Shown: piece by piece, positions 565 through 40,465 of the stretch
Layout: the number at the start of each line of letters is the position of its first letter
Position numbering within the stretch: the stretch's first letter is position 1
Sequence record: OQ990039
Direction: 5' to 3' (one strand)
DNA: 64,000 nucleotides
Source of the DNA: Escherichia phage SUT_E420
The notes under the pieces: generated by a model
Databases searched by the model: none
What the model saw: the letters and a program-made list of their open reading frames with translations, nothing else
What the model was told of the DNA's origin: nothing
Program-made: the position numbers and the translations under genes

Positions 565-2664
565 TTAGGTAAGGCGTTGAATTATAAGTTTAATATTTGG
601 TAAGCATGCTTTCATGCCAATTATATTGCTCATAGAGGATTCTAACCAAATAGAGATATTATTATTTCCATCATTTCTCATATAATATGTTAGAGTATAG
701 TAACCCGTTTGACCTACTGATCCCGGCAACCCAGATACCCAGTACGGAGTTGGAGTATACCCAGCAGCCTGTAATTTACAAGCNNNNNNNNNNNNNNNNN
801 NNNNNNNNNNNNNNNNNNNNNNNNNNNNNNNNNNNNNNNNNNNNNNNNNNNNNNNNNNNNNNNNNNNNNNNNNNNNNNNNNNNGTTTGACCTACTGATCC
901 CGGCAACCCAGATACCCAGTACGGAGTTGGAGTATACCCAGCAGCCTGTAATTTACAAGCATTTACTACAGTACCTTTAATAGTAAAAAATGGTACATAT
1001 TCTCCTGCAGGTAGGGACAATATTTGGTGAAGTTTTTTATCGATAGTATTGCCACCCATTCTGAACCTACTATCTCCATATTCGGCGCCTTTAGATAGCA
1101 TTTCCGTAGGATTAAAGCAGCCAATACCTCCTGCAGACAACCATGTGTCATCCAGGAACTCCATAGTACATACAATTGCGCCATTTCTACTACTATTAAG
1201 ATCTAGTCCCACGGTGCCAACATGCACGGAACCATTACCCTGAAATACTATGTTACCAGATAGTACAGTACTTCCGCTACCACCTAGAAGTCTTAAAGGT
1301 AAAAGATTCTCACTCCAAACATCTCCATAATTGCTGCCTATTTTTGGAGGATTACTAGAAACATACCAAGATGCTGAAGGTAAAAAGTTATAAATACTAA
1401 CTACATTAGTATTTAAACCACCAACGTTACCACCTTTAATACTTGGTGCGTTATTGCTTTCCGTAGTGGGCAGCCCAAATGTTGCTATGCCAGAAACTCC
1501 AGTAGAGGGGGCACCCATACTCAAGTTACACCCAACATCACGAAAATCAGCTCTGCTACCTACATTAAAGTTTTTCTCAACAAAGTTAATAAACTTCCAT
1601 GACGTATTATTAACATTAACCCCTTTAATAATAAACTCTCTTGGGCTAAGTTTAATATCATTGCCAGTAAATAGCCCACTATCAATACTGTATCCTGAGC
1701 CATTGTATACTAGATTGGTAACATACCAAGTAATTTTAGATGGATAAATACCGAGGTGCTCACTATATATACCTATAGGCCCATTAGCAGCATCATTCGG
1801 ATCACCCATACTTTCCCAATAAGCATAGTTAGTGGGATCAGCACGTGCGAAACCTACAGAGTACTTAGGAGCCGAGGGATTGCTAGGGTTATCTATAAAG
1901 TTAAGAGCCCCAGAACTAGAAGCACCGTGCACAGCTCCAGCAGTGGTATAGTTAGGCCCTTCCATACCGTAAAGAACTCTATTGCAAGATCTACCACGAA
2001 CATATATGGCGTTAAATCCAAAGTTTCTAGCTCCGGGATGCCTAACGTAGTCGCTAGGGATAGTTATGGATCCTGAGCTGGGCACAATATATCCTGAACC
2101 ATCCCAGGCAGACTTATAAAGAGCGGCACCACCTAAGTACATTGCACTAGATGCAAATCCTCTACGCCCACTAAAGGCGCCAAACATATGCTGACATCCA
2201 GTACCATCTCTAAGCTTCTGGGGAATAGTTCCACTAGTTCCACTGTTAAAATAACCTACATCAAGGGATAGATCAGCACTAGCTGTTATTTGTGTTTTTA
2301 AGCCACCCTGGGACATGACCTGTGGATTTATAATTCCGTACGCCTTAGCACCTACCCCCATAGACATACCGGATAACATATGTCTAGAGCCATCTGAGAA
2401 CTCAATCTCCGTCAGCACAACTCTATTAGGATCATTATTATGTAACTGGGTAATTCTGCTAGGCATATCAGACCAGTAGTAATCTCCAGCACCTTGATCT
2501 AGCCTTAACCCTGTGGAGTGAGTTTCTGTTATGATAACATGGGGCATATCTGAATGGAATATGGTCTGAGAGTCAGGATTAATATGTTGATTAGTATCTC
2601 CGCCACTACCCCTGCGCAGAGAGAGTATAGATTTATTATTTAGCTTGCCAGCGAAAAAACTCAT
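565..2664 (-). CDS. oad: receptor-binding tail protein, pb5-like
   Basis: 699-aa Gly-rich ORF divergent from llp-type lipoprotein gene; includes about 59 artefactual residues from N-gap 782-883 plus duplicated flank, so true length is near 640 aa. Confidence 0.75.
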
Positions 2665-2683
2665 AAGTTCTCCAAAAATTTAA

Positions 2684-2712
2684 TTGCCTATATTGCTATA
2701 ATTCTGTATAAT
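2684..2712 (+). promoter_or_regulatory. sigma70-type promoter for llp (-35 TTGCCT, 17 bp, -10 TATAAT)
   Basis: TTGCCT at 2684-2689 and TATAAT at 2707-2712, followed by AGGAGA Shine-Dalgarno and ATG at 2744. Confidence 0.6.
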
Positions 2713-2743
2713 AGTATTATAAATTAAACATAGGAGAATGTAA

Positions 2744-2977
2744 ATGAAAAAATTATTTTTAGCTATGGCAGTGGTACTTCTTTCGGCTTGCTCTACTTTT
2801 GGTCCTAAAGATATTAAATGTGAGGCCTACTATGTACAAGATCATGTGAAATATAAGGCTAATGTTTTTGATAGGAAAGGGGATATGTTTTTGGTGTCAC
2901 CAATTATGGCCTATGGGTCTTTTTGGGCTCCCGTAAGCTACTTTACTGAGGGGAATACATGTGAGGGAGTTTTCTAA
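2744..2977 (+). CDS. llp: Llp-like lipoprotein (receptor-blocking superinfection exclusion)
   Basis: 77 aa; signal peptide MKKLFLAMAVVLLSAC with lipobox LSAC; divergent from receptor-binding protein gene. Confidence 0.8.
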   Translation: MKKLFLAMAVVLLSACSTFGPKDIKCEAYYVQDHVKYKANVFDRKGDMFLVSPIMAYGSFWAPVSYFTEGNTCEGVF

Positions 2978-3238
2978 GTAAAAACGACCTTAGTAACTAT
3001 CACCACTTAAGATAATCCTAGCGCAGAATTAGTCCAGGATGCCACACAAGACACTAGGGAAGGTATAATAAGAATATTTATACTAATCACTGCAATTGCT
3101 AGGGTATTCCAAATACCATACTCATAGGAGCATGAAAGATATGTCAAATAAAAGAAAGAACAGACGTGGAGAAGTGTACGAAGCGTGGGTTAATATTTAC
3201 GGATTTGGTTTTGTATTATTCTTAATCTTCGTAGGTTT

Positions 3239-3424
3239 TTGGTTAGCAGCTATGGCGGGGTGGCTATAATGGAATGGGTAATTATTGGCATATTCGTCTT
3301 ATTGATACTTCTCTTTGCAGGCTTACGTGTAATAGATACCTCTGTAACCCAAACAGAGATTAAATTAATGCAGTTGAGCAATAGATTATCTAGAATTGAA
3401 ACTTTATTAGAGGAGCGTAAATAA
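3239..3424 (+). CDS. small membrane protein (TM helix plus coiled coil)
   Basis: ORF with MEWVIIGIFVLLILLFAG hydrophobic N-terminus; likely true start at internal MEWVII (about 3269). Confidence 0.5.
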   Translation: MVSSYGGVAIMEWVIIGIFVLLILLFAGLRVIDTSVTQTEIKLMQLSNRLSRIETLLEERK

Positions 3425-3531
3425 TGGAATGGGTAATTATTGCACTACTGGGGATTGTGATTATTGGGCAATGTATCTTAGATAATCACTTAGCTAGAAT
3501 CGAAACCTTACTATCGGAGAAACATAAATGA
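3424..3531 (+). CDS. small membrane protein, paralog of preceding ORF
   Basis: 35-aa ORF MEWVIIALLGIVIIG... starting at TAATG overlap with upstream stop; ends ...IETLL-like as upstream paralog. Confidence 0.35.
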   Translation: MEWVIIALLGIVIIGQCILDNHLARIETLLSEKHK

Positions 3532-3722
3532 TGGAAGTGGCAATTACACTAATGGTAATATTAGTCTGGGTAATCCTCATTGTCTCTCGTATCGTGTATC
3601 TCCGCCTAAAAACTCTAGAAGCCCAGGTAAAACAACAACAAGTTATTCTAGAAAAGCTAGTACTACTGCAACGTTGTGATAGCACCCGTATTCTGCAAAT
3701 TGAGAGGGAATTAGATGTTTAG
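3528..3722 (+). CDS. small membrane protein
   Basis: 64-aa ORF, hydrophobic N-terminus ITLMVILVWVILIV, start overlaps upstream stop (ATGA). Confidence 0.5.
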   Translation: MMEVAITLMVILVWVILIVSRIVYLRLKTLEAQVKQQQVILEKLVLLQRCDSTRILQIERELDV

Positions 3723-3960
3723 TATTATAATTGCTTTTATTATCGGGATACTCGCGGGAGTTTTCGGGACGACTGCGGCAATCAATAAGCATCGGGAATA
3801 TATTGCGGGAGTGACGCGGGAGATTGCGGAAAGGGAGCGGAAGTTTGACGAGAAACGTGCGGAGTTTGAGCGAGAGTGGTCGGATGGATCTCGGGCGTCG
3901 CGGAAGAGATTCCGGGAGTTCAGACCAGAACACAGGTTTGATGACCCTTCTATGCGCTAA
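3715..3960 (+). CDS. small membrane protein with basic/acidic C-terminal tail
   Basis: 81-aa ORF, N-terminal TM segment IIIAFIIGILAGVFG, overlapping start with upstream ORF. Confidence 0.5.
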   Translation: MFSIIIAFIIGILAGVFGTTAAINKHREYIAGVTREIAERERKFDEKRAEFEREWSDGSRASRKRFREFRPEHRFDDPSMR

Positions 3961-6134: not shown

Positions 6135-6238
6135 TGTAAAGTTTTGTAAAGGTCGCCTTTTATGGTGGCCTTTTTTGTTATAATGCTTTTACACCAAAAC
6201 GGTGGATTAAAAATTTCCCAAAAATTTGGAGGCTTAAA

Positions 6239-6469
6239 ATGGTTGCTTACTCTTCTGCTACTCATCTGTTCACCGCTCAAGGCTGGGTATCTAACCGCGC
6301 CATTATTCATGAAATGGTGCAGGAGTTCGGCATTGCTAAAACTTATAACACCATCCAAGAACTATACAACGCCGATAAAATCGATCAGCAAACGGCGGGC
6401 TTTTTGCTGGACACGCTGAAAGCGGAACACTGTACTAAAAAACAAGCTGCAAAAATTGTTTTAATGTAA
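6239..6469 (+). CDS. hypothetical protein
   Basis: 76-aa ORF with upstream GGAGG-like ribosome-binding site. Confidence 0.5.
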   Translation: MVAYSSATHLFTAQGWVSNRAIIHEMVQEFGIAKTYNTIQELYNADKIDQQTAGFLLDTLKAEHCTKKQAAKIVLM

Positions 6470-6519
6470 TTAGTAACGGGGGATATTATATCCCTCACTG
6501 ACTAGGAGAATAAAAAAAA

Positions 6520-6669
6520 ATGGTTATTTTTCGAGCTATTCTGGCGGGTATCTTGGGCGCTATTTTATCGTTGTTTGCAATAGCTTTTGGCGTTCACGCC
6601 GTTATTATTGGCGCTGGCATTGCTGCGTTTTCTTATCTGCTGGGCTGCATGACTAGTAAAGGAGAATAA
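6520..6669 (+). CDS. small membrane protein (49 aa)
   Basis: Below ORF-track cutoff; AGGAGA ribosome-binding site then ATG; entirely hydrophobic; stop followed directly by next gene. Confidence 0.4.
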   Translation: MVIFRAILAGILGAILSLFAIAFGVHAVIIGAGIAAFSYLLGCMTSKGE

Positions 6670-6671
6670 AA

Positions 6672-6884
6672 ATGATCCGCAACGTTTCCCTTGCACGTTC
6701 GAAAGGCTTTAAGCTGGTGGATGTTAACACGTTCGAGCGGGAAGATTGTAAAATCGAATATGTAGCACGTAACAAAAATGCCTTTCGTGTTACCGAGAAA
6801 AAATTTGATAAGCGCGGCAACGTGATAGCTGAAACAGTTAAACACTTTGCCACCTTTTACGCTGCGTTTCGTGGGGTACTATGA
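6672..6884 (+). CDS. hypothetical protein
   Basis: 70-aa ORF, AGGAGA ribosome-binding site upstream. Confidence 0.5.
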   Translation: MIRNVSLARSKGFKLVDVNTFEREDCKIEYVARNKNAFRVTEKKFDKRGNVIAETVKHFATFYAAFRGVL

Positions 6885-7126
6885 AAAGCGTTATTGTTAT
6901 TATCCTTGCAATGGCTGGCGGTTTTATCGCCACCTTATTTAAAAATGACCCCATTTCATTGGGGATCTTTATGCTTTTATCTGGCTATCTAATCGGGAGG
7001 CTAACAAATGATTCAGCAAATTAAAACGGCTTTTCGTTTTTGGGGCGTCCTGCCTTCAATTGGTTTTATTCTGATAATTATTAGTCAGCTAATGATCATC
7101 GGCGGAACTATTTGGGAGCTATGCAA

Positions 7127-7471
7127 ATGATAATTTATGAAGGCAATCGTTTTGTTGCTAATTGCCGCCCAGCATTATTAGCAAACTATTTAAATCAGCT
7201 TTCCCCAGCTTATAAGGGCGTTATTAATATTTATGAGGGCAAGGCACATTATAAAATTAATGCGGTCGTTGCCCGTGAACTAGCGTTTCAATTTTTGACC
7301 TTTGCATCTTGTGACGTTCAGGTTATGGGTGAAGCATTAATTGCAGAAAATGAAGATGATTTTATTAATATTTTCCGCAAGGTATGTACCGAGCGCCTGA
7401 TAATGAAAGGCGCATATATTCAATCCACTGCGGATAGTATTGAAACAGCGTTTCGAAAGGTGGCGCAATGA
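7127..7471 (+). CDS. hypothetical protein
   Basis: ORF 7112-7471; likely start at MIIYEGNRF (ATGA overlap with a small upstream membrane ORF). Confidence 0.5.
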   Translation: MIIYEGNRFVANCRPALLANYLNQLSPAYKGVINIYEGKAHYKINAVVARELAFQFLTFASCDVQVMGEALIAENEDDFINIFRKVCTERLIMKGAYIQSTADSIETAFRKVAQ

Positions 7472-7572
7472 GATTATATATTTTCGTTGGTAATAGTAAG
7501 GCCGCTAATGATTCCGCTGGTGGCGATAACATTCGCCACTATTGGCAAAAATATATTTACTAGGGAGTTATT

Positions 7573-7767
7573 ATGAGTAATAAAATAGTTGTAACCAAGA
7601 TCAGTACAATGGTTGATGTTTTTTACGTGCCAGATACGCCGGAGAATCGGCAAGCGGTCGAGCGTGGCGAATATGATAAAGTGATTTATGATCACGATGG
7701 TTATTATCAGTATTTGGTGGATTCCTACGGGGAGGAGGAAAAAATCACGCATCGACTACCAGACTAA
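7573..7767 (+). CDS. hypothetical protein
   Basis: 64-aa ORF with AGGGAG ribosome-binding site; last gene before non-coding repeat region. Confidence 0.5.
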   Translation: MSNKIVVTKISTMVDVFYVPDTPENRQAVERGEYDKVIYDHDGYYQYLVDSYGEEEKITHRLPD

Positions 7768-8051
7768 TAATCACGGGGCGCAACTATCAGGGAGTGCCCC
7801 CAATTTTCAAATGAGAATGATTCTCATTTAACCGCGCCCGCGATGGTTAGCCTGCTAATGATTAGGGTGTTACGTGTCGCCTTGTGTGATCGTTAGCTCG
7901 CTAACTAATTTCTAAGCCTCCTCCAATTTTACCCGTGTTTTAGTATCCCCAACAAAATTAAACGCGTTAGAATGCGTTTGAGAGCGTTTTAGCTGTATAT
8001 TAGAATTATTCACTGCATAGGAATACTGTATATTTATACAGTAGGATAAGC

Positions 8052-8133
8052 TGTTGATAAGTCTGTTGATAACGCCTCAAAATGGCTAGGATTTTGTCAA
8101 GTCAAATCGTGCTGTTGATAAGTCTGTGGATAA
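8052..8133. repeat. cluster of four DnaA-box-like 9-mers
   Basis: TGTTGATAA at 8052, 8064, 8113 and TGTGGATAA at 8125 (reverse complement of TTATCCACA), all in direct orientation. Confidence 0.6.
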
Positions 8134-8149
8134 CTTAAATAATAGTGTT

Positions 8150-8330
8150 TCTCACTTCCATTCTTAAATACGAATCAGTATCATTCGCATTTCACTATCT
8201 AACTAATAATCATTCCACTTTTTAAATGAGAATCGTTTCACTTCCTGAATAATTCTCACTTCCATTCTTAAATGCGAATTATTATCATTCACATTCCGCT
8301 TTTTAAATGAGAATGATTCTCATTATCATT
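8150..8330. repeat. direct repeats and palindromes (GAGAATGATTCTC family)
   Basis: TTCTCACTTCCATTCTTAAAT(A/G)CGAAT occurs twice; palindrome AAATGAGAATGATTCTCATT at 8305-8324; similar palindromes near 7811 and 4024. Confidence 0.6.
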
Positions 8331-8366
8331 CGTATTCAGGCAAGCAGGGCAATTGCCCTGCGCTTT

Positions 8367-8968
8367 TGTGCAAATCCGACATTTGCCCCCATGGATTACG
8401 CGTGGGCGTGTATGTGCGAATCCGACAATTTTTGGTAGTGTGCAAATCCGACCCGAAAAATTTTTATAATGTGCGGATCCGACAATGAATTTTCCTAAAA
8501 ACTCCAGCAATCCGATGCTGCGCATCAATCCTGTGGAATTAACTAGAATATGTGCAAATCCGACATGGGTTTATTTGTGCGAATCCGACAAGATTTTTGT
8601 GACTTCGATTGGAGAGTGTGTGATTGTAAGAGTTTGGGGAGAAGTTGAGAGATCGAGAAAAATTTGAGGGAACTGCGAGAGGGGCGCATGTTTGGTGCGT
8701 AGCACCTGATTTGCGGGGATTTTGGGGAAGAGTTGAGAAGATTTGGGTTAATTTGAGATTAGTGCAGATAAAGTAAAATCTTATTAGCTAAATGGGGCAA
8801 AATAGCTTGACAAGTGAAAGTTTCTGTGGCTCTAAAAACTCAGGCAATCATGGGCCTTCGGCCCGAAATAATGCTGCCATTTTCAAGAGATTATATGTTC
8901 CTAAAAACTTAGGCAATTGTGCAAATCCGACCATAAATTTCTAGAAACACAATGTGCAAATCCGACAG
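8367..8968. repeat. dispersed 15-mer repeat family TGTGC(A/G)(A/G)ATCCGAC(A/C), about 8 copies
   Basis: Copies near 8367, 8413, 8439, 8470, 8551, 8576, 8928, 8954 in non-coding DNA; irregular spacing. Confidence 0.65.
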
Positions 8969-9503
8969 TAATTTCTGGAAATGTGTTTTCAAAAAATGTC
9001 TCCTAGAAATAACCGCCCTCCCCATAACCGCCCTGTATTAAACCGCCTAGTATATGTTCCTAGAAACTTAGGAGAACCGCCCTAGAAAGAGTGAGTATTT
9101 CGTGAGAACTCTGGAGTTTCTAGGAAAGTGTTGTGCCATCCTAGCAGATGAGCGGCAACAGGTGTATCATCTTGAATGTAAATTATGTGGTCAAAAGTTT
9201 TACTTTTATTTTAAATATAAGATCCCCCAGGGTTCTCATATAGAGCTTTGCCCCCGCCAGAAGGTCTCGTGATGTTTCTAGCAATTTATATTAAATTACT
9301 TATTAACTTGTCCTGTCGCTCCGTATCCTCCGCTACAAGTTAGTAATTTTAAATTACTGAACCACCACACCTTCTGTGTGGCAACTCTAAATGGTTAATT
9401 CTATTAACTCATAGAGTTATGATAACATACATTTAGCTATCTGTCAACGAGAGTTTGTATTTGAGTCTCGGTACAGGTATTGTGCACCGAGACATGCAGG
9501 ATC

Positions 9504-10388
9504 TTACAGTAACTCTTGGTATGCTTTTTGGTACGCCTCAGTGTCAGTAGGTGTATCTTTTGCTAGTGCAATTAGTTCATCTGTTATCTGAATGTTCGTA
9601 TTATAACGTGTGTGGAACTCGTTAGGAATTTCTAGGTATCTATTGATGAATGCTGCAGCAAGCGGTGTGACTAAACCAATCTCTAGAGATAGCTTAACTT
9701 GTTTTTCGTAGATTAAATATTGAGAATCAGATGGGGTTGGTGGGGTTACATCAATTTTCTCGGGTTCTTTTTCTGGAAGCAATGGATTATTATATAATGC
9801 TTCATCTGGAAGCACAGATTTACGCTCTTTAAATATATAAGTTTCTAGATCCGATGCTTTAGATCCTGAGTATACCGCAAAGATGCTAGCTTTACCCTGT
9901 GATGCCCTAACTGGTAAATAACTAGTAGGATAGCTTCTTAATGCATCATGGAATGGACTTCCTGAGTACTTGTATGTATCTCCATAGAGATCATCAATAT
10001 TCATTCGTTCATCTTCAAAGATGTGAAATGACTTAAATGGTGGAATGGTGAAGTATTCCATCTGTAACCCATAAACTAAGAAACGATGTGCATATGCACT
10101 GATTTTTAAGACTGTGAATGCTTTTTCACCTTCTTTATGGGCGTTGCCTTTTGAAGTAACTTGGTAACGTTTACAAAACATCTCTACTAGACGTTTCTCA
10201 TTAATACTAAGGGTGGAGTACAGTCGTCCACTTAATCCTATAAGTGCATCGAACATAAATGCTAGTTTATCTTTTTCTTCCTGGGTTAGTTCAGGAAATG
10301 GAAGTACTTTAGCATCAGGAACACTATTATTTTTCTTAGGTTTTGTTTTACCAGCGTTTTGTCTTAGTTTATCTTTAAAGTTATACAT
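9504..10388 (-). CDS. hypothetical protein
   Basis: 294-aa ORF, first gene of the long minus-strand block. Confidence 0.55.
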   Translation of the reverse strand: MYNFKDKLRQNAGKTKPKKNNSVPDAKVLPFPELTQEEKDKLAFMFDALIGLSGRLYSTLSINEKRLVEMFCKRYQVTSKGNAHKEGEKAFTVLKISAYAHRFLVYGLQMEYFTIPPFKSFHIFEDERMNIDDLYGDTYKYSGSPFHDALRSYPTSYLPVRASQGKASIFAVYSGSKASDLETYIFKERKSVLPDEALYNNPLLPEKEPEKIDVTPPTPSDSQYLIYEKQVKLSLEIGLVTPLAAAFINRYLEIPNEFHTRYNTNIQITDELIALAKDTPTDTEAYQKAYQELL

Positions 10389-29258: not shown

Positions 29259-29334
29259 TGGAGCGGCTAGAGGGAATCGAACCCTACTCAGCGAGGCTTG
29301 GAAGGCCTGCGGCACAACCCGTGTGCTTAACCGC
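29259..29334 (-). tRNA. tRNA-Gly (anticodon TCC)
   Basis: Acceptor GCGGTTA/TAGCCGC, anticodon loop CTTCCAA, T-loop TTCGATT, CCA encoded. Confidence 0.7.
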
Positions 29335-29342
29335 TTATTGTT

Positions 29343-30175: not shown

Positions 30176-30270
30176 TGGAGGTAGGTAAGGGGATCGAACC
30201 CTTACACCGTATCACTACGATCAACCGATTTCAAGTCGGAGTCCAGCGCCAGCCATTGGATTGACCTACC
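30176..30270 (-). tRNA. tRNA-Ser (anticodon TGA), class II
   Basis: 92 nt; perfect acceptor GGTAGGT/ACCTACC, anticodon loop CTTGAAA, long variable arm, CCA encoded. Confidence 0.75.
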
Positions 30271-35236: not shown

Positions 35237-35314
35237 TGGTGGCTCCCCGAGGATTCGAACCTACGTACCTTCCGGTTATGAGCCGGGTGCTCATACCATA
35301 TGAGCTTGAGAACC
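35237..35314 (-). tRNA. tRNA, anticodon CAT (Met or Ile2)
   Basis: Acceptor GGTTCTC/GGGAGCC with G-U pairs, D-stem GCTC/GAGC, anticodon loop CTCATAA. Confidence 0.55.
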
Positions 35315-38139: not shown

Positions 38140-39087
38140 TTACTTGTTACGCATATCCATGATCATTTGACCATCGTAGCCAGTACCTACCACAGTCTGA
38201 GGTACACCACCTTGATACTTCTGAGCACGGATCATTTCAACTTCCAGTTGTTTCCAACGAATCATTTCAGGAGTAATGGTACGTTGCAATGCGGCGTTAG
38301 CTTCAGCTTCTTTCTTAGCTGCGTACAGTTTAGCATCTGCGTCACGTTCATTAGCAATAGCTTGGTTGTTACGAGCTTCACGATCTGCTTCTGCTTGTTT
38401 AACTTTTTGCTGTGCTTCCTGTTCAACGCGAGCAAGTTCAGCTTTCGCAGCATTAACTTGCTCTTCACGAACTTTGGTATTCTGTACCTGTTCCATGATT
38501 ACTGGCGGCAAGGTAATATCCTGAAGGAATACCTGCTTAACTGTGTAACCATATGGGCGCGCATACTCTTCAACTTCCTGTTGAATTGCAGTTTGCAATT
38601 GAGCCTGAATTTTAGCATCAAATAAATCTTGTGCTTTAGGTACAGACTTACCAAACTCACGAATAGTAGACAGTAATTTTTCAGTTACATACTTGTCTAG
38701 TGCCTGATCCTGAGTACCTGCGTTAATACGGTTAATCGGTGCTTTAGAACCATCAAACTGCAACATAACAGTCAGGTCAACAGTGGATTTAAACTTATCC
38801 TGGCTAGGAACCTGAAGTTTATCTAATTTTACAGCAATATCTTTTGTACTAAAAGTATCGAAAGATGCAAACGGGTTTACAAGATGGAAGCCCGGCAATA
38901 CTGGATTAGGGTCTACTTTACCCAGGAATGTTTGGGTTTTAACCGTACCATCAGAAACAATAGTATATGAATTAAAAGCTAGGATTAAACCTGCTAAACC
39001 AACTACAGCACCAATACCCCAACGTTTAATAGTACGAATTACTTTCTGCTCAGAAGTCAGTTCTTTCATATTTTTAGTAGCAAACAT
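38140..39087 (-). CDS. SPFH/band-7 (stomatin/prohibitin/HflK-C-like) membrane protein
   Basis: 315 aa; N-terminal TM WGIGAVVGLAGLILAF, band-7-like core, long Ala/Gln/Glu-rich coiled coil. Confidence 0.65.
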   Translation of the reverse strand: MFATKNMKELTSEQKVIRTIKRWGIGAVVGLAGLILAFNSYTIVSDGTVKTQTFLGKVDPNPVLPGFHLVNPFASFDTFSTKDIAVKLDKLQVPSQDKFKSTVDLTVMLQFDGSKAPINRINAGTQDQALDKYVTEKLLSTIREFGKSVPKAQDLFDAKIQAQLQTAIQQEVEEYARPYGYTVKQVFLQDITLPPVIMEQVQNTKVREEQVNAAKAELARVEQEAQQKVKQAEADREARNNQAIANERDADAKLYAAKKEAEANAALQRTITPEMIRWKQLEVEMIRAQKYQGGVPQTVVGTGYDGQMIMDMRNK

Positions 39088-39121
39088 ATATTTCCTTTGT
39101 TTTAGTTACAGTTAATAAAAT

Positions 39122-39196
39122 TGGCCGAGGTGACAGGATTCGAACCTGCATAAAGGAATTTAGAAGACTCCTGCCTCTCCCTTAGACTACACCCCG
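39122..39196 (-). tRNA. tRNA-Arg (anticodon TCT)
   Basis: Acceptor CGGGGTG/CACCTCG, anticodon stem GGAGT/ATTCC with loop CTTCTAA, T-arm GCAGG-TTCGAAT-CCTGT, CCA encoded. Confidence 0.7.
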
Positions 39197-39993
39197 TTTA
39201 AGTATTTTTAAGAACTCTCGTAAAAACTCTTAAAAATACAGACGATACCGGGAGAGTCATAAGTCTCACTCATTAAGTATTTCAAGACAAAATACAGTAA
39301 CGTCTATTATTTTCCAGTTTAAGTCAGGGTGACTTAGTGGTTATGTCCTGCGGTATATTGAGGACTCGGTTAGGCTTGGGGTCATGACTTCCCACCTTTT
39401 GCTGCTACTCAACAGGAGTTATCGCGAATTACCTGTGCTATTGTGCACCATTAGTGACATCTCTCATGTCAGCATTTCCCACTTTGTGGATAGCTTGAAA
39501 AACTACTCCGATATGGAGAAAGAACTTCACTATCCTAGAATACCTTCTAAAGTTCTTCTTTAGCCTGGACATAGTTAAATCGTAATAAAACTATTCAGCA
39601 GACTGGTTGGTTAGTCTGGAACCAACTACCGCGTGGTTTAGGCAGTGCGCAACTAACCTCGGAAGCTTTTATGTTAAAAGCATCAGTTATCCAGTTCTTA
39701 CCGACCGTAGGATTCGAACCTACATCTTCCACCAGTTACGGCTTGATAATACCAATTATACTAGGACGGCAGTGTTACTACATAAGTGATTTCCACACCC
39801 CACTATTTATAAATCAGAGAAGAGTTTAGGGGAGAGGTTTCAGACGCCTCATTTTACACGTTCTAGCCACTAACCGGGATTGCCGCCCCCTGTGTACTAG
39901 TTTTACAACTAACCCACCGACTCTATTCAATGCGCTCCGGTTGGGATTCTGCACTCAGCGTAATCGGCTCGCTGTTCCCTAATTTATGAATAT

Positions 39994-40022
39994 ATTATAC
40001 AGAATTTATAAGCATTTAGCAA
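39994..40022 (-). promoter_or_regulatory. T5-early-type promoter (-35 TTGCTA, -10 TATAAT)
   Basis: 17-bp spacer; no protein gene for about 900 bp downstream, so transcript is a long leader or ncRNA plus tRNA-Arg. Confidence 0.6.
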
Positions 40023-40030
40023 ATGAATTT

Positions 40031-40465
40031 TTAGAAAAATTCACTAGCAATCAAAGCAGTTGTTTTACCGTCATAACGTCCGGGAAATTCTGCCTTAATA
40101 GTTTTCATTAATAGAGCTTTGGTAATACCTGGGTTTAATTTAACCAGTTCTGCAAAATACTCACGAATCTGAACCTCAGTCAGTTGACTTGGCTGATACT
40201 CTTGCAGCATGGAATAAAGCAGTTGCTCATAGTCTACATCAGTAGGAACTTCCATACCAACTTTAATAGCGCGTTGTTTTGCATTTTCTAGAGCCTTAAT
40301 CTGAGCTTTCAGATAGGCTACGAACTCGGTTCGAGTAACAATGTCTTTATCAATACGTTGCAGATCACCAATCATGGTCTGAAGATTAAGTGCCCGTTCC
40401 TTATCACCGTGAGTACGTGCTAGACTAAGTAGTCCACGAAGGGTCATTAGAATATTTTCACCCAT
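40031..40465 (-). CDS. hypothetical protein
   Basis: 144-aa ORF; start overlaps stop of a small upstream ORF (TAATG). Confidence 0.5.
   Translation of the reverse strand: MGENILMTLRGLLSLARTHGDKERALNLQTMIGDLQRIDKDIVTRTEFVAYLKAQIKALENAKQRAIKVGMEVPTDVDYEQLLYSMLQEYQPSQLTEVQIREYFAELVKLNPGITKALLMKTIKAEFPGRYDGKTTALIASEFF

What the first reader, a model, noticed from the sequence alone, without database searches (positions are those of the whole stretch)
39197..39993. About 800-bp ORF-poor structured region downstream of a strong promoter
The promoter at 39994-40022 is followed by about 800 bp with no convincing ORF (only a 60-aa plus-strand ORF overlapping a tRNA-like T-arm), then tRNA-Arg. The region has moderate GC, many short inverted repeats and one tRNA-like element (about 39699-39775, T-arm GTAGG-TTCGAAT-CCTAC, imperfect acceptor). 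It may encode a stable non-coding RNA or a degenerate tRNA array.
Basis: seen in the sequence. Interest (0 to 1): 0.55.

Follow-up and report, generated by a model that had tools for sequence, protein, structure and literature searches.

The report
Large structured RNA (RNAX) of T5 phages
This stretch is the rnaX gene of T5-like phages, a roughly 790-base non-coding RNA long annotated only as a "stable RNA with unknown functions"; comparison with relatives shows it is an elaborately folded molecule that carries a transfer-RNA look-alike with no anticodon.

Summary
The window is a T5-like phage (Tequintavirus). Positions 39197-39993 on the minus strand match the annotated gene rnaX ("RNAX, stable RNA with unknown functions") of phage T5. 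It lies between the early promoter P16-17 and tRNA-Arg(UCU).

No reading frame in the stretch survives in relatives. Rfam matches only one tRNA-like element (39699-39770), so this is not a tRNA array.

About 40 distinct homologues come from two Demerecviridae subfamilies plus the genus Sugarlandvirus. They support many helices through compensatory base changes:
- a 13-bp helix that clamps the 5' end;
- a four-way junction (39803-39633);
- a 12-bp long-range helix within that junction, carrying the tRNA-like domain;
- a chain of 3' hairpins ending in a roughly 16-bp hairpin just before tRNA-Arg.

The tRNA-like domain keeps its acceptor, D and T arms but never has a 7-nt anticodon loop. Peripheral domains are swapped, inserted or lost between phages. 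The gene lies inside the viable T5 st0 deletion.

The RNA is absent from bacterial genomes and from Rfam (no GOLLD, ROOL or Y RNA match). The gene is therefore already known; its architecture appears undescribed and its function is still open.

The parts
39994..40022 (-). Sigma-70 type early promoter (TTGCTA, 17-nt spacer, TATAAT), equivalent to T5 promoter P16-17. The inferred transcription start is at about 39987.
   Evidence: Consensus scan, 10 of 12 positions. The homologous T5 position carries the annotated promoter P16-17.
39197..39987 (-). The rnaX (RNAX) transcript body, from the inferred start to the 5' end of tRNA-Arg.
   Evidence: 100% identical to T5_ev212 and homologous to annotated rnaX of T5 (AY543070), DT571/2 and BF23. 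No minus-strand terminator lies inside it.
39809..39987 (-). 5' domain closed by helix P0 (39987-39975 pairs with 39821-39809, 13 bp). The interior (39974-39822) is a variable domain.
   Evidence: RNAalifold on 19 sequences. In T5 and other short forms the interior is missing and P0 is a plain hairpin with a 6-9 nt loop. Its inner pairs covary (GAGAG/UUCUC versus GAUG/CAUC).
39633..39803 (-). Conserved core: a four-way junction closed by helix P3 (39803-39800 GUGG pairs with 39636-39633 CCAC).
   Evidence: P3 covaries: ATGG/CCAT in bobsandoy, ACGG/CCGT in DU_PP_V, GTGG/CCAT in SB13. For the whole core, 94.4% of cells are paired against 31-41% in slid controls, and 18 pairs change on both sides.
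39682..39790 (-). Long-range helix P1 (39790-39777 pairs with 39695-39682). It has 12 pairs with conserved G.G (39781/39691) and C.C (39786/39686) mismatches, and it carries the tRNA-like domain at its tip.
   Evidence: All cells are paired and 6 of 12 pairs show compensatory double changes. The helix is kept with further compensatory changes in DU_PP_V.
39699..39770 (-). tRNA-like domain with acceptor, D arm (G18G19) and T arm (GGUUCGAAUCC). In place of an anticodon arm it has a 3-bp stem with a 6-nt loop, and no CCA is encoded.
   Evidence: Rfam tRNA 35.5 bits with the anticodon arm skipped. Acceptor, D and T stems covary. In relatives the anticodon-arm position holds a tetraloop hairpin or a long two-part stem, never a 7-nt loop. 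The domain is replaced by an unrelated hairpin domain in four Epseptimavirus loci.
39665..39681 (-). Hairpin H2, directly 3' of P1.
   Evidence: Covariation at two pairs (CG/GC; UA/CG/AU).
39641..39658 (-). Hairpin H3 of the junction (GGUUAGU-UGCGC-ACUGCC). It is enlarged to a domain of about 70 nt in Klebsiella phages.
   Evidence: UG/CG/UA, and GC to AU in SB13, phiR201 and AAS21.
39606..39626 (-). Hairpin H4 (GUUGGUU/AACCAAC).
   Evidence: One compensatory pair, GC to AU.
39506..39558 (-). Extended hairpin H5 (39558-39545 pairs with 39540-39519), followed by small hairpin H6 (39518-39506).
   Evidence: In H5, the pair 39546/39539 is AU, GC or UA, and the pair 39545/39540 is AU or CG.
39396..39471 (-). 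Hairpin H7 (39471-39455) and interrupted stem H8 (39454-39443 pairs with 39408-39396, with an inner stem 39436-39432 paired to 39416-39412).
   Evidence: H7 has three covarying pairs. H8 is mostly invariant.
39345..39395 (-). Hairpins H9 (39395-39391 pairs with 39380-39374) and H10 (39365-39360 pairs with 39351-39345).
   Evidence: Several pair types occur at 39394/39375, 39393/39378, 39363/39347 and 39362/39348.
39314..39340 (-). Fully invariant hairpin block CCACUAAGUCACCCUGACUUAAACUGG (H11).
   Evidence: Identical in 25 distinct sequences although the flanks vary. Partly kept in DU_PP_V.
39285..39305 (-). Hairpin H12.
   Evidence: The pairs change AU to GC, GC to UG or UA, and AU to CG.
39202..39239 (-). 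Terminal 3' hairpin of about 16 bp, ending 5 nt before tRNA-Arg. It is the inferred 3' cap of the processed RNA.
   Evidence: RNAalifold on 25 sequences, all cells paired. It stays attached to the RNAX 3' end where genes separate RNAX from tRNA-Arg, and it is conserved in DU_PP_V and Sugarland.
39122..39196 (-). tRNA-Arg(UCU), co-transcribed. RNase P cleavage at its 5' end would create the RNAX 3' end.
   Evidence: ARAGORN and Rfam. The processing step is inferred.

Best explanation
The region is rnaX, a non-coding gene of T5-like phages whose product is a multi-domain structured RNA of about 790 nt that acts as RNA.

**Shown here (about 0.9)**
- It is transcribed in the minus direction from a strong early promoter.
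- It has no conserved reading frame.
- It folds into at least a dozen helices that relatives maintain by compensatory substitutions. U.G pairs place the structure on the transcribed strand.
- Its anatomy, 5' to 3', is:
  1. a 13-bp helix (P0) that begins at the first transcribed base and closes an optional 5' domain;
  2. a conserved four-way junction (P3/P1/H2/H3), in which a 12-bp stalk (P1) displays an anticodon-less tRNA-like domain with intact acceptor, D and T arms;
  3. a chain of hairpins that includes an invariant block;
  4. a terminal hairpin of about 16 bp.

**Inferred, biogenesis (about 0.6)**
- The RNA is co-transcribed with tRNA-Arg and released by RNase P cleavage at the tRNA 5' end.
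- The paired 5' end and the 3' hairpin protect it from RNase E and 3' exonucleases, which would explain why it is a 'stable RNA'.
- RNase P may also nick it at the tRNA-like domain, with P1 and P3 holding the two pieces together.

**Inferred, function (about 0.3)**
- It acts in trans as an accessory scaffold or decoy.
- The tRNA-shaped elbow and the invariant junction sequences would engage a tRNA-recognising host or phage factor, such as a processing or modification enzyme or a tRNA-targeting defence protein.
- This would place it functionally beside the large phage RNAs of tRNA islands (GOLLD, ROOL).
- It is dispensable under laboratory conditions.

The overall confidence of 0.55 blends these three layers.
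For: **Identity and synteny**
- The stretch is homologous and syntenic to annotated rnaX.
- The promoter is confirmed.

**Non-coding**
- All six ORFs of 42-60 aa carry frameshifts or stops in relatives, including T5 itself.
- None has a Pfam hit. The only PHROG hit is a family of 45-aa sequences of unknown function, whose ORF carries a stop in two relatives.

**Structure**
- RNAalifold predicts 15 of 30 pairs with compensatory changes.
- In the curated core structure 93-94% of cells are paired, against 31-42% when partners are slid. There are 17-18 pairs with double changes against 0-4 in the slid controls, and 0 of 500 shuffles reach the observed values on most measures.
- P3 covaries in three lineages.
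- The 3' hairpins covary.
- The P0 domain is inserted or deleted exactly at a hairpin loop.

**Strandedness**
- Frequent U.G and G.U pairs in P1, the acceptor and the D stem would be A.C on the other strand.

**Conservation as one unit**
- A covariance model finds exactly one copy in the window (179 bits) and a homologue in Pectobacterium phage DU_PP_V, which belongs to another subfamily (87.8 bits). DU_PP_V has the same layout of promoter, gap, pseudo-tRNA and tRNA-Arg.
- The RNA core is more than 95% identical between the window and T5, while the neighbouring YqeY-like protein is only 59% identical.

**Restricted to these phages**
- No copy was found in one genome from each of 185,579 bacterial and archaeal species.
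- No copy was found in 5,426 E. coli genomes.

**Dispensable**
- rnaX lies inside the viable T5 st0 deletion.

**Analogy**
- GOLLD and ROOL are large phage RNAs near tRNA islands, and GOLLD sometimes has tRNAs inside its linker region (PMC12286853).
Against: - No expression or end-mapping data were available here. 'Stable RNA' rests on the depositors' annotation.
- Folding energy is not better than shuffled sequence (z = -0.79).
- Covariation comes from about 25-40 distinct, related and recombining sequences. The structure was partly derived from those same alignments, and R-scape was not run.
- Several helices (P0 outer part, H8, H11, 39604-39562, 39307-39238) are invariant or too little sampled, so they are unproven.
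- The tRNA-like domain is replaced in some Epseptimaviruses and the peripheral domains are mosaic. The tRNA mimic therefore cannot be essential to whatever the RNA does.
- No partner has been identified. The neighbouring YqeY-like gene does not co-occur with the tRNA-like domain.
- The gene is dispensable in the laboratory.
Confidence: 0.55

Rival explanations
1. It is a cis-acting leader. The structured RNA would exist to control processing, stability or expression of the downstream tRNA-Arg and the SPFH/band-7 gene, and would have no function of its own once cleaved off.
For: It is co-transcribed with tRNA-Arg and the SPFH gene, with no terminator between them. The terminal hairpin abuts the tRNA in Tequintavirus and DU_PP_V.
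Against: In Epseptimavirus, Sugarlandvirus and phage AAS21, one to several protein genes lie between RNAX and tRNA-Arg, yet the RNA, including its terminal hairpin, is kept. A four-way junction with invariant loops and a tRNA-like domain is far more than a processing signal would need.
Confidence: 0.15
2. It is a string of independent small structured RNAs or mobile RNA modules. Several sRNAs would be cut out of one precursor, each module with its own role, rather than one large RNA.
For: Modules are exchanged, inserted or lost independently between phages. All covarying helices are local to a module (P0, P3 and the hairpins), and no covarying contact between modules was found (one search was too noisy to show one). 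T5 annotates several other small misc_RNAs in the tRNA island.
Against: The order of conserved elements, from promoter to terminal hairpin, is kept across two subfamilies. Variable domains sit at hairpin tips, as in other large RNAs.
Confidence: 0.15
3. It is a decayed tRNA array: pseudogenes with no function, left over in the tRNA island.
For: It lies in a tRNA island, contains one tRNA-like element that different annotators call pseudo-tRNA, tRNA-OTHER, Ser or SeC, and is dispensable.
Against: Only one tRNA-like hit appears at E<=10. Non-tRNA helices covary. Blocks of 15-30 nt are invariant across genera. The tRNA-like domain keeps its D and T arms by compensatory change while consistently lacking an anticodon loop, which is selection for shape rather than decay.
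Confidence: 0.04
4. It is a Y-RNA-like molecule: a stem plus a tRNA-like domain that binds a Ro60/Rsr protein of the host, as with Deinococcus Yrn1 or Salmonella YrlA.
For: The architecture resembles Yrn1: flanks pair into a stem that carries D, a short 'anticodon' arm with a 6-nt loop, and a T arm (PMC4201824). Most lineages have GUCGAA or GCCGAA just 5' of P1, which resembles the GNCGAAN0-1G Rsr motif. Salmonella, a host of many of these phages, has Rsr.
Against: The window and all Tequintaviruses have GUGGAA, and the trailing G of the motif is missing elsewhere. There was no Rfam Y RNA or YrlA hit. No TROVE-domain protein is found among the six large ORFs of the window. By my own knowledge, E. 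coli K-12, the classic host, lacks rsr. A 5-base motif is expected by chance about once in 1 kb.
Confidence: 0.05
5. It is a very divergent member of GOLLD or ROOL.
For: It has the same setting (phage, tRNA island), a similar size, variable and conserved halves, and an embedded tRNA-like element.
Against: No match to either Rfam model at E<=10 in the window, nor at E<=1 in nine relatives.
Confidence: 0.05
6. It encodes one or more small proteins (for example the 45-aa ORF 39595-39732, which matches phrog_19105).
For: Several genome records annotate short CDSs here, and one ORF matches a PHROG family.
Against: Every ORF is interrupted in some relatives. There are no Pfam hits. The PHROG ORF overlaps the T arm, P1, H2 and H3, whose conservation is explained by pairing, and it has a GTG start with no evident ribosome-binding site.
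Confidence: 0.02

Closest known systems
rnaX (RNAX) of bacteriophage T5, BF23 and DT571/2 (GenBank AY543070, AY734508, AJ604530, KM979355)
   Same: It is the same gene. The sequences are homologous (93% to T5 over the shared part, 96% to DT571/2). It sits in the same place, between promoter P16-17 and tRNA-Arg(UCU), on the same strand.
   Different: The window's copy carries an extra 5' domain of about 150 nt inside helix P0 that T5 lacks, so it is 791 nt against 719 nt. The database entries give only a span and 'unknown functions'. No structure, family model or paper describing it was found here.
GOLLD and ROOL RNAs (large ornate RNAs of phages and prophages)
   Same: They are large (about 580-800+ nt) non-coding RNAs encoded by phages next to tRNA islands. 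Their function is unknown, and ROOL is reported non-essential. GOLLD has a conserved part, a variable part, and sometimes tRNAs inside it (PMC12286853).
   Different: RNAX shows no detectable similarity to either Rfam model. Its hosts are enterobacteria and its phages are lytic Demerecviridae. Whether it forms oligomers is unknown.
Bacterial Y RNAs (Deinococcus Yrn1, Salmonella/Mycobacterium YrlA)
   Same: They combine a stem formed by distant strands with a tRNA-like domain that has D and T arms. The Yrn1 'anticodon' loop also has 6 nt. One YrlA is cut by RNase P (PMC4201824).
   Different: There is no Ro60/Rsr gene nearby. The Rsr-binding motif is not met in the window. YrlA has the permuted arm order T, acceptor, D. 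RNAX is 4-8 times longer, and there is no Rfam hit.
Stable RNAs of the phage T4 tRNA cluster (species 1 and 2, rnaC/rnaD), cited from my own knowledge
   Same: They are non-tRNA stable RNAs of unknown function, co-transcribed with phage tRNAs and released by tRNA-processing enzymes. They are dispensable.
   Different: The T4 RNAs are about 120-140 nt. No sequence comparison was made here.
tRNA (Rfam RF00005) and pseudo-tRNA
   Same: The element 39699-39770 passes the Rfam tRNA gathering score and has canonical D-loop and T-loop sequences.
   Different: It has no 7-nt anticodon loop in any lineage, carries conserved acceptor mismatches, encodes no CCA, and is embedded in a covarying long-range helix.

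Membership tests
T5 rnaX (RNAX) | Sequence homology to the annotated rnaX span | tested here: met
   blastn gives 93% identity to AY543070 and 96% to DT571/2 over window 39197-39826, and the matched features are annotated rnaX.
T5 rnaX (RNAX) | Position between early promoter P16-17 and tRNA-Arg(UCU), on the same strand | tested here: met
T5 rnaX (RNAX) | Accumulates as a stable RNA in infected cells | not testable with these tools
   This rests only on the depositors' annotation. No paper with the data was found.
tRNA (RF00005), for element 39699-39770 | Score above the Rfam gathering threshold | tested here: met
   35.5 bits against a threshold of 29.
tRNA (RF00005), for element 39699-39770 | Anticodon stem with a 7-nt loop carrying an anticodon | tested here: not met
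   cmscan skips 18 nt at this position. The comparative structure gives a 3-4 bp stem with a 6-nt loop in the window, a tetraloop hairpin in AAS21 and DU_PP_V, and a long two-part stem in Klebsiella phages. ARAGORN gives no call in the window and inconsistent calls (Ser-act, SeC-tca) in relatives.
tRNA (RF00005), for element 39699-39770 | Fully paired 7-bp acceptor stem and a usable 3' end (CCA encoded or added) | tested here: inconclusive
   G1.U72 (G.A in other lineages) and U5.U68 are conserved mismatches. The other five pairs are kept and covary. No CCA is encoded (AAGA follows).
Degenerate tRNA array | Several tRNA-derived units in series | tested here: not met
   Only one tRNA hit in 811 nt at E<=10. 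A covariance model of the core finds one copy.
GOLLD / ROOL | Match to the family covariance model | tested here: not met
   No hit at E<=10 in the window region, nor at E<=1 in nine relatives. Both models are in Rfam according to PMC12286853.
GOLLD / ROOL | Large non-coding RNA encoded by a phage next to a tRNA island | tested here: met
   A 791-nt RNA in a phage with at least 21 tRNA genes on the same strand.
GOLLD / ROOL | Homo-oligomeric cage assembly | not testable with these tools
   This needs cryo-EM or native gels of the transcript.
Y RNA (YrlA / Yrn1) | Encoded within a few kb of a Ro60/Rsr (TROVE) gene | tested here: not met
   Neighbouring genes are YqeY-like and SPFH. None of the six ORFs of 330 aa or more in the 64-kb window has a TROVE domain. 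Shorter ORFs were not scanned.
Y RNA (YrlA / Yrn1) | GNCGAAN0-1G motif near the 5' end | tested here: not met
   The window has GUGGAAAUC. Other lineages have GUCGAA or GCCGAA but without the closing G. The motif definition is from PMC4201824.
Y RNA (YrlA / Yrn1) | tRNA-like domain with T and D arms attached to a stem | tested here: met
Y RNA (YrlA / Yrn1) | Bound by Ro60/Rsr | not testable with these tools
   This needs immunoprecipitation.
tmRNA | tRNA-like domain formed by the two RNA ends, plus a tag reading frame | tested here: not met
   ARAGORN finds no tmRNA. The tRNA-like domain is contiguous and internal.

The most novel reading that the evidence does not exclude
RNAX may be a third, independent class of giant 'ornate' phage RNA of tRNA islands, beside GOLLD and ROOL. 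It is present in the classic, genetically tractable coliphage T5 and across Demerecviridae. In this reading its conserved four-way junction displays an anticodon-less tRNA mimic on a stalk. The RNA would work as an RNA-only or RNA-protein machine, either assembling into higher-order particles or trapping a tRNA-recognising host factor or defence nuclease. That would give a conditional advantage that laboratory deletions such as st0 do not reveal.
Probability: 0.3. Interest if true: 0.75.

Novelty: already known. Interest (0 to 1): 0.5.

Why it matters
The functions of large structured RNAs that phages encode beside their tRNA genes (GOLLD, ROOL) are a standing open question, and those RNAs occur mostly in poorly tractable systems.

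RNAX is the same sort of object: a phage RNA of about 0.8 kb, heavily structured, tRNA-associated and dispensable in the laboratory. It occurs in T5, one of the best-developed E. coli phage models, and a viable deletion (st0) already exists.

The architecture worked out here gives precise targets for point mutations, pull-downs and cryo-EM:
- clamped 5' and 3' ends;
- a four-way junction;
- a tRNA mimic without an anticodon;
- invariant junction sequences.

It would also correct routine annotation. Genome records currently label this stretch as tRNA-OTHER, tRNA-Sec or tRNA-Ser, as short hypothetical proteins, or leave it blank.

Tried and rejected
- **First viral-collection pattern scan.** It used one N too many and found nothing. 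The corrected pattern returned only the genomes already held plus two more.
- **Metagenome pattern scan.** Only 11 of the 120 loci were true homologues; the rest were chance 16-mers.
- **Bacterial genome scan.** It gave one chance match of 11 bits.
- **De novo helix ranking on a BLAST pile-up.** It was too noisy to reveal long-range contacts between domains.
- **Folding energy as evidence of structure.** Rejected, z = -0.79.
- **Pairing of the junction sequence GGAA/UCGAA with the linker after H2 (UUCC/UCGC).** The two lineages need different registers, and the recombinant L193 breaks the pairing.
- **Pairing GGUGU with AACACU.** It is possible but untestable, because both sequences are invariant.
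- **A link between the tRNA-like domain and the neighbouring YqeY-like protein.** The two do not co-occur.
- **Palindromic hairpin loops as kissing sites.** They are no more frequent than chance (inspection).
- **Origin of the tRNA-like domain from one of the phage's own tRNAs.** No close relative was found; the best match is 52 of 72 identical positions.
- **Literature searches for RNAX.** They found no description.
Full report
**What the window is.** The finding region with its flanks (window 39100-40100) is 100% identical to Escherichia phage T5_ev212, and 575 phage records match it, mostly T5-like phages (Demerecviridae). The window carries 21 tRNA genes on the minus strand between 27.6 and 39.2 kb.

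**Check of the observation.**
- A TTGCTA-17-TATAAT promoter lies on the minus strand at 40022-39994.
- Downstream, the longest complete ORF in 797 nt is 60 aa (39607-39789, plus strand). The stretch is among the 9% most ORF-poor tiles of the window.
- Rfam finds a tRNA-like element at 39699-39770 (35.5 bits, gathering score 29). Its anticodon arm is left unaligned and its acceptor stem is imperfect. ARAGORN does not call it.
- tRNA-Arg(tct) follows at 39196-39122.
Only the impression of 'many inverted repeats' cannot be backed by thermodynamics, since the MFE z-score is -0.79.

**It is an annotated gene.**
- In T5 (AY543070 and the fragment AY734508), DT571/2 and BF23, the homologous stretch is annotated misc_RNA rnaX, 'RNAX, stable RNA with unknown functions'. 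It sits between promoter P16-17 and tRNA-Arg.
- Another T5 record (AY587007) marks only a pseudo-tRNA there.
- Other genomes label it tRNA-OTHER, tRNA-Ser, tRNA-Sec or tRNA-Pro, annotate short hypothetical proteins, or leave it blank.
- I found no paper that describes RNAX.
- Rfam has no family for it. Apart from the tRNA hit, nothing reaches E<=10 in the window or E<=1 in nine relatives.

**Not protein-coding.**
- The six ORFs of 42-60 aa have no Pfam match.
- One of them (39595-39732, minus strand) matches phrog_19105, a family of 45-aa sequences of unknown function.
- Every ORF acquires frameshifts or stop codons in some relatives. In T5 itself two of them do: a -1 shift with 5 stops, and a -2 shift with 4 stops.

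**Comparative material.** I collected homologous loci from four sources: IMG/VR through the neighbouring SPFH gene and a conserved motif, GenBank phages, metagenomes (11 true hits among 120 pattern matches), and a bacterial genome scan that gave only one chance match. They cover Tequintavirus, Epseptimavirus, Pantoea phage AAS21, Yersinia phage phiR2-01, Klebsiella Sugarlandvirus and Pectobacterium phage DU_PP_V (subfamily Mccorquodalevirinae).

The RNA is mosaic:
- A 5' domain of about 150 nt is present in the window but absent from T5.
- Middle modules differ between lineages.
- Klebsiella phages enlarge one hairpin to about 70 nt.
- Some phages carry insertions of 150-250 nt.
- In Epseptimavirus, Sugarlandvirus and AAS21, protein genes separate the RNA from tRNA-Arg.

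**The conserved core.** RNAalifold on 24 sequences showed that the tRNA-like element sits on a long-range helix, P1.
- The 5' flank 39790-39777 pairs with the 3' flank 39695-39682, giving 12 pairs interrupted by conserved G.G and C.C mismatches.
- All cells are paired, and 6 of the 12 pairs show double compensatory changes (AU/CG, CG/GC, GC/AU, UA/CG).
- A hairpin (H2, 39681-39665) follows directly and also covaries.
- A second long-range helix, P3 (39803-39800 GUGG with 39636-39633 CCAC), closes the whole unit. It changes to ATGG/CCAT in phage bobsandoy, ACGG/CCGT in DU_PP_V and GTGG/CCAT in SB13.
- Together with hairpin H3 (39658-39641) this makes a four-way junction.
- On a 25-sequence alignment of the junction, 94.4% of cells are paired against 31-41% when partners are slid by 1-3 columns. 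Eighteen pairs change on both sides against 0-4 in the slid controls, and no shuffle of 500 reaches the observed values (the smaller model is).
- U.G and G.U pairs are frequent in P1, the acceptor and the D stem. The structure therefore belongs to the transcribed (minus) strand.
- A covariance model of the core finds one copy in the window (179 bits). It scores 87-92 bits in the variants without the tRNA-like body and 87.8 bits in DU_PP_V. In DU_PP_V, P1 is rebuilt with four further compensatory pairs while the G.G mismatch is kept.

**The tRNA-like domain.**
- Acceptor, D stem and T stem all covary. The Klebsiella and AAS21 D stems are fully compensated. The T stem occurs as GUAGG/CCUAC, GCAGG/CCUGC and GUGGG/CCCAC. 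T5 and DT571/2 repair or shift acceptor pairs 5-68 and 6-67.
- D-loop G18G19 and the T-loop GGUUCGAAUCC are conserved, so the elbow of the L-shape is under selection.
- The anticodon-arm position never holds a 7-nt loop. It holds a 3-4 bp stem with a 6-nt loop (window, Epseptimavirus), a 5-bp stem with a tetraloop (AAS21, DU_PP_V), or a long two-part stem (Klebsiella phages).
- G1.U72 (or G.A) and U5.U68 are conserved mismatches. No CCA is encoded.
- In four Epseptimavirus loci the whole domain is replaced by an unrelated hairpin domain of about 45 nt, while P1, P3 and the junction sequences stay.
- The domain is therefore a shape mimic of tRNA, not a decoder, and it is not the indispensable part of the RNA.
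- No phage tRNA is close to it.

**The rest of the molecule.**
- Helix P0 (39987-39975 with 39821-39809, 13 bp) begins at the inferred first transcribed base and closes the 5' domain. In T5-type short forms the same helix is a simple hairpin, and its inner pairs covary.
- Downstream of the junction several hairpins have compensatory changes: 39626-39606, 39558-39519, 39471-39455, 39395-39374, 39365-39345 and 39305-39285.
- The block 39340-39314 is invariant in 25 distinct sequences.
- A hairpin of about 16 bp (39239-39202) ends 5 nt before tRNA-Arg. It stays with the RNA where genes intervene before the tRNA.
- Some predicted stems have too little variation to judge.
- No covarying contact between domains was found. 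My pile-up scan for such contacts was too noisy.

**How it most likely works.**
- Shown: it is a non-coding gene under strong selection for RNA secondary structure. It is conserved as a unit from promoter to terminal hairpin across Demerecviridae and is more conserved than its protein neighbour (the window and T5 share over 95% of the RNA core but only 59% of the YqeY-like protein). It was not found in one genome from each of 185,579 bacterial and archaeal species or in 5,426 E. coli genomes. It is dispensable for growth, since it lies inside the viable T5 st0 deletion.
- Inferred, biogenesis (about 0.6): early transcription from P16-17, release of the 3' end by RNase P at tRNA-Arg, and protection of both ends by P0 and the terminal hairpin, which would make it 'stable'. 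RNase P may also nick it at 39770/39771, with P1 and P3 holding the halves together, as happens for one YrlA RNA (PMC4201824).
- Inferred, function (about 0.3): an accessory trans-acting scaffold or decoy. Its tRNA-shaped elbow and invariant junction nucleotides would bind a tRNA-recognising factor. Which factor that is, I cannot say.

**Comparison with known systems.**
- The nearest in kind are GOLLD and ROOL: large phage RNAs next to tRNA islands of unknown function, with tRNAs sometimes inside GOLLD (PMC12286853). RNAX does not match their models.
- The core resembles bacterial Y RNAs in design, especially Deinococcus Yrn1 (stem plus D, 6-nt-loop arm and T). Most lineages carry GUCGAA or GCCGAA where Y RNAs have GNCGAAN0-1G. 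However, the window and all Tequintaviruses have GUGGAA. No TROVE-domain protein is found among the large ORFs of the window, and there is no Rfam hit. Membership therefore fails.
- It is not a tmRNA, not a tRNA array and not protein-coding.
- From my own knowledge, the T4 tRNA cluster also encodes two small stable RNAs of unknown function. These are a smaller analogue.

**Verdict.** What appears not to be described is its architecture and its distribution. Neither Rfam nor the papers I could search describe them. The function remains open. I score interest at 0.5. As a database fact the gene is ordinary. It is notable as a large, clearly structured, tRNA-mimicking RNA in a model phage, which could make the question of what such phage RNAs do experimentally accessible.

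**Limits.**
- No expression data were available.
- Covariation rests on a few dozen related and recombining sequences, and the structures were partly derived from the same alignments.
- R-scape was not run.
- Several stems are unproven.

Noticed in passing
window 35240-35314 (-), 30180-30270 (-), 29262-29335 (-): The tRNA island holds further tRNA-like elements that ARAGORN does not call: Rfam tRNA at 40.3 bits, and tRNA-Sec model hits of 37.6 and 31.1 bits that fall below the gathering score. The T5 st0 record annotates the small misc_RNAs RNA2H, RNAIV and rna2 in its tRNA gene region.
   Followed up: partly
window 38140-39087 (-): The SPFH/Band_7 membrane protein downstream of tRNA-Arg has homologues of 75-80% identity in phage contigs of about 143-180 kb and about 90 kb that lack RNAX. 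This suggests lateral transfer between phage families.
   Followed up: no
window 40031-40465 (-): The YqeY-like ORF upstream of the promoter has only a weak Pfam hit (18 bits, below the cut-off) and is often annotated 'tRNA amidotransferase'. It is only 52-59% identical between some close Tequintaviruses, including T5, although the adjacent RNA core is more than 95% identical. Its presence does not track that of the tRNA-like domain.
   Followed up: partly
loci L101/L161, L193, L054 (EPS7), L055 (Sugarland): Some natural recombinants have breakpoints inside the RNA. In L101/L161 the breakpoint lies in the T-loop and leaves an A.C mismatch in the T stem. L193 joins an Epseptimavirus-type 5' half to Tequintavirus-type H2/H3. 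EPS7 and Sugarland carry insertions of 150-250 nt next to a partial duplicate of the AUAGUGGG motif.
   Followed up: partly
window about 40033-39980, and matching sites in relatives: The promoter plus roughly the first 10-20 transcribed bases recur at several other places in T5-like genomes. They look like a repeated early-promoter cassette.
   Followed up: no
window about 2400-3800 and 6200-9600: These are other markedly ORF-poor stretches of the window. They may be related to the long non-coding region between the first-step-transfer and early genes described for T5 and BF23 (PMC10644984).
   Followed up: no
loci L161 1702-1856 and L178 1223-1377: The core covariance model gives weak full-length matches (22.5 bits, E about 0.004) elsewhere in the tRNA island of two metagenomic T5-like contigs, but not in the window. 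They may be a tRNA with paired flanks or a diverged second copy.
   Followed up: no
loci L051-L053, L092 (Epseptimavirus): An ORF of about 169 aa, or two smaller ORFs, is inserted between the RNAX terminal hairpin and tRNA-Arg. The ORF was not identified.
   Followed up: no
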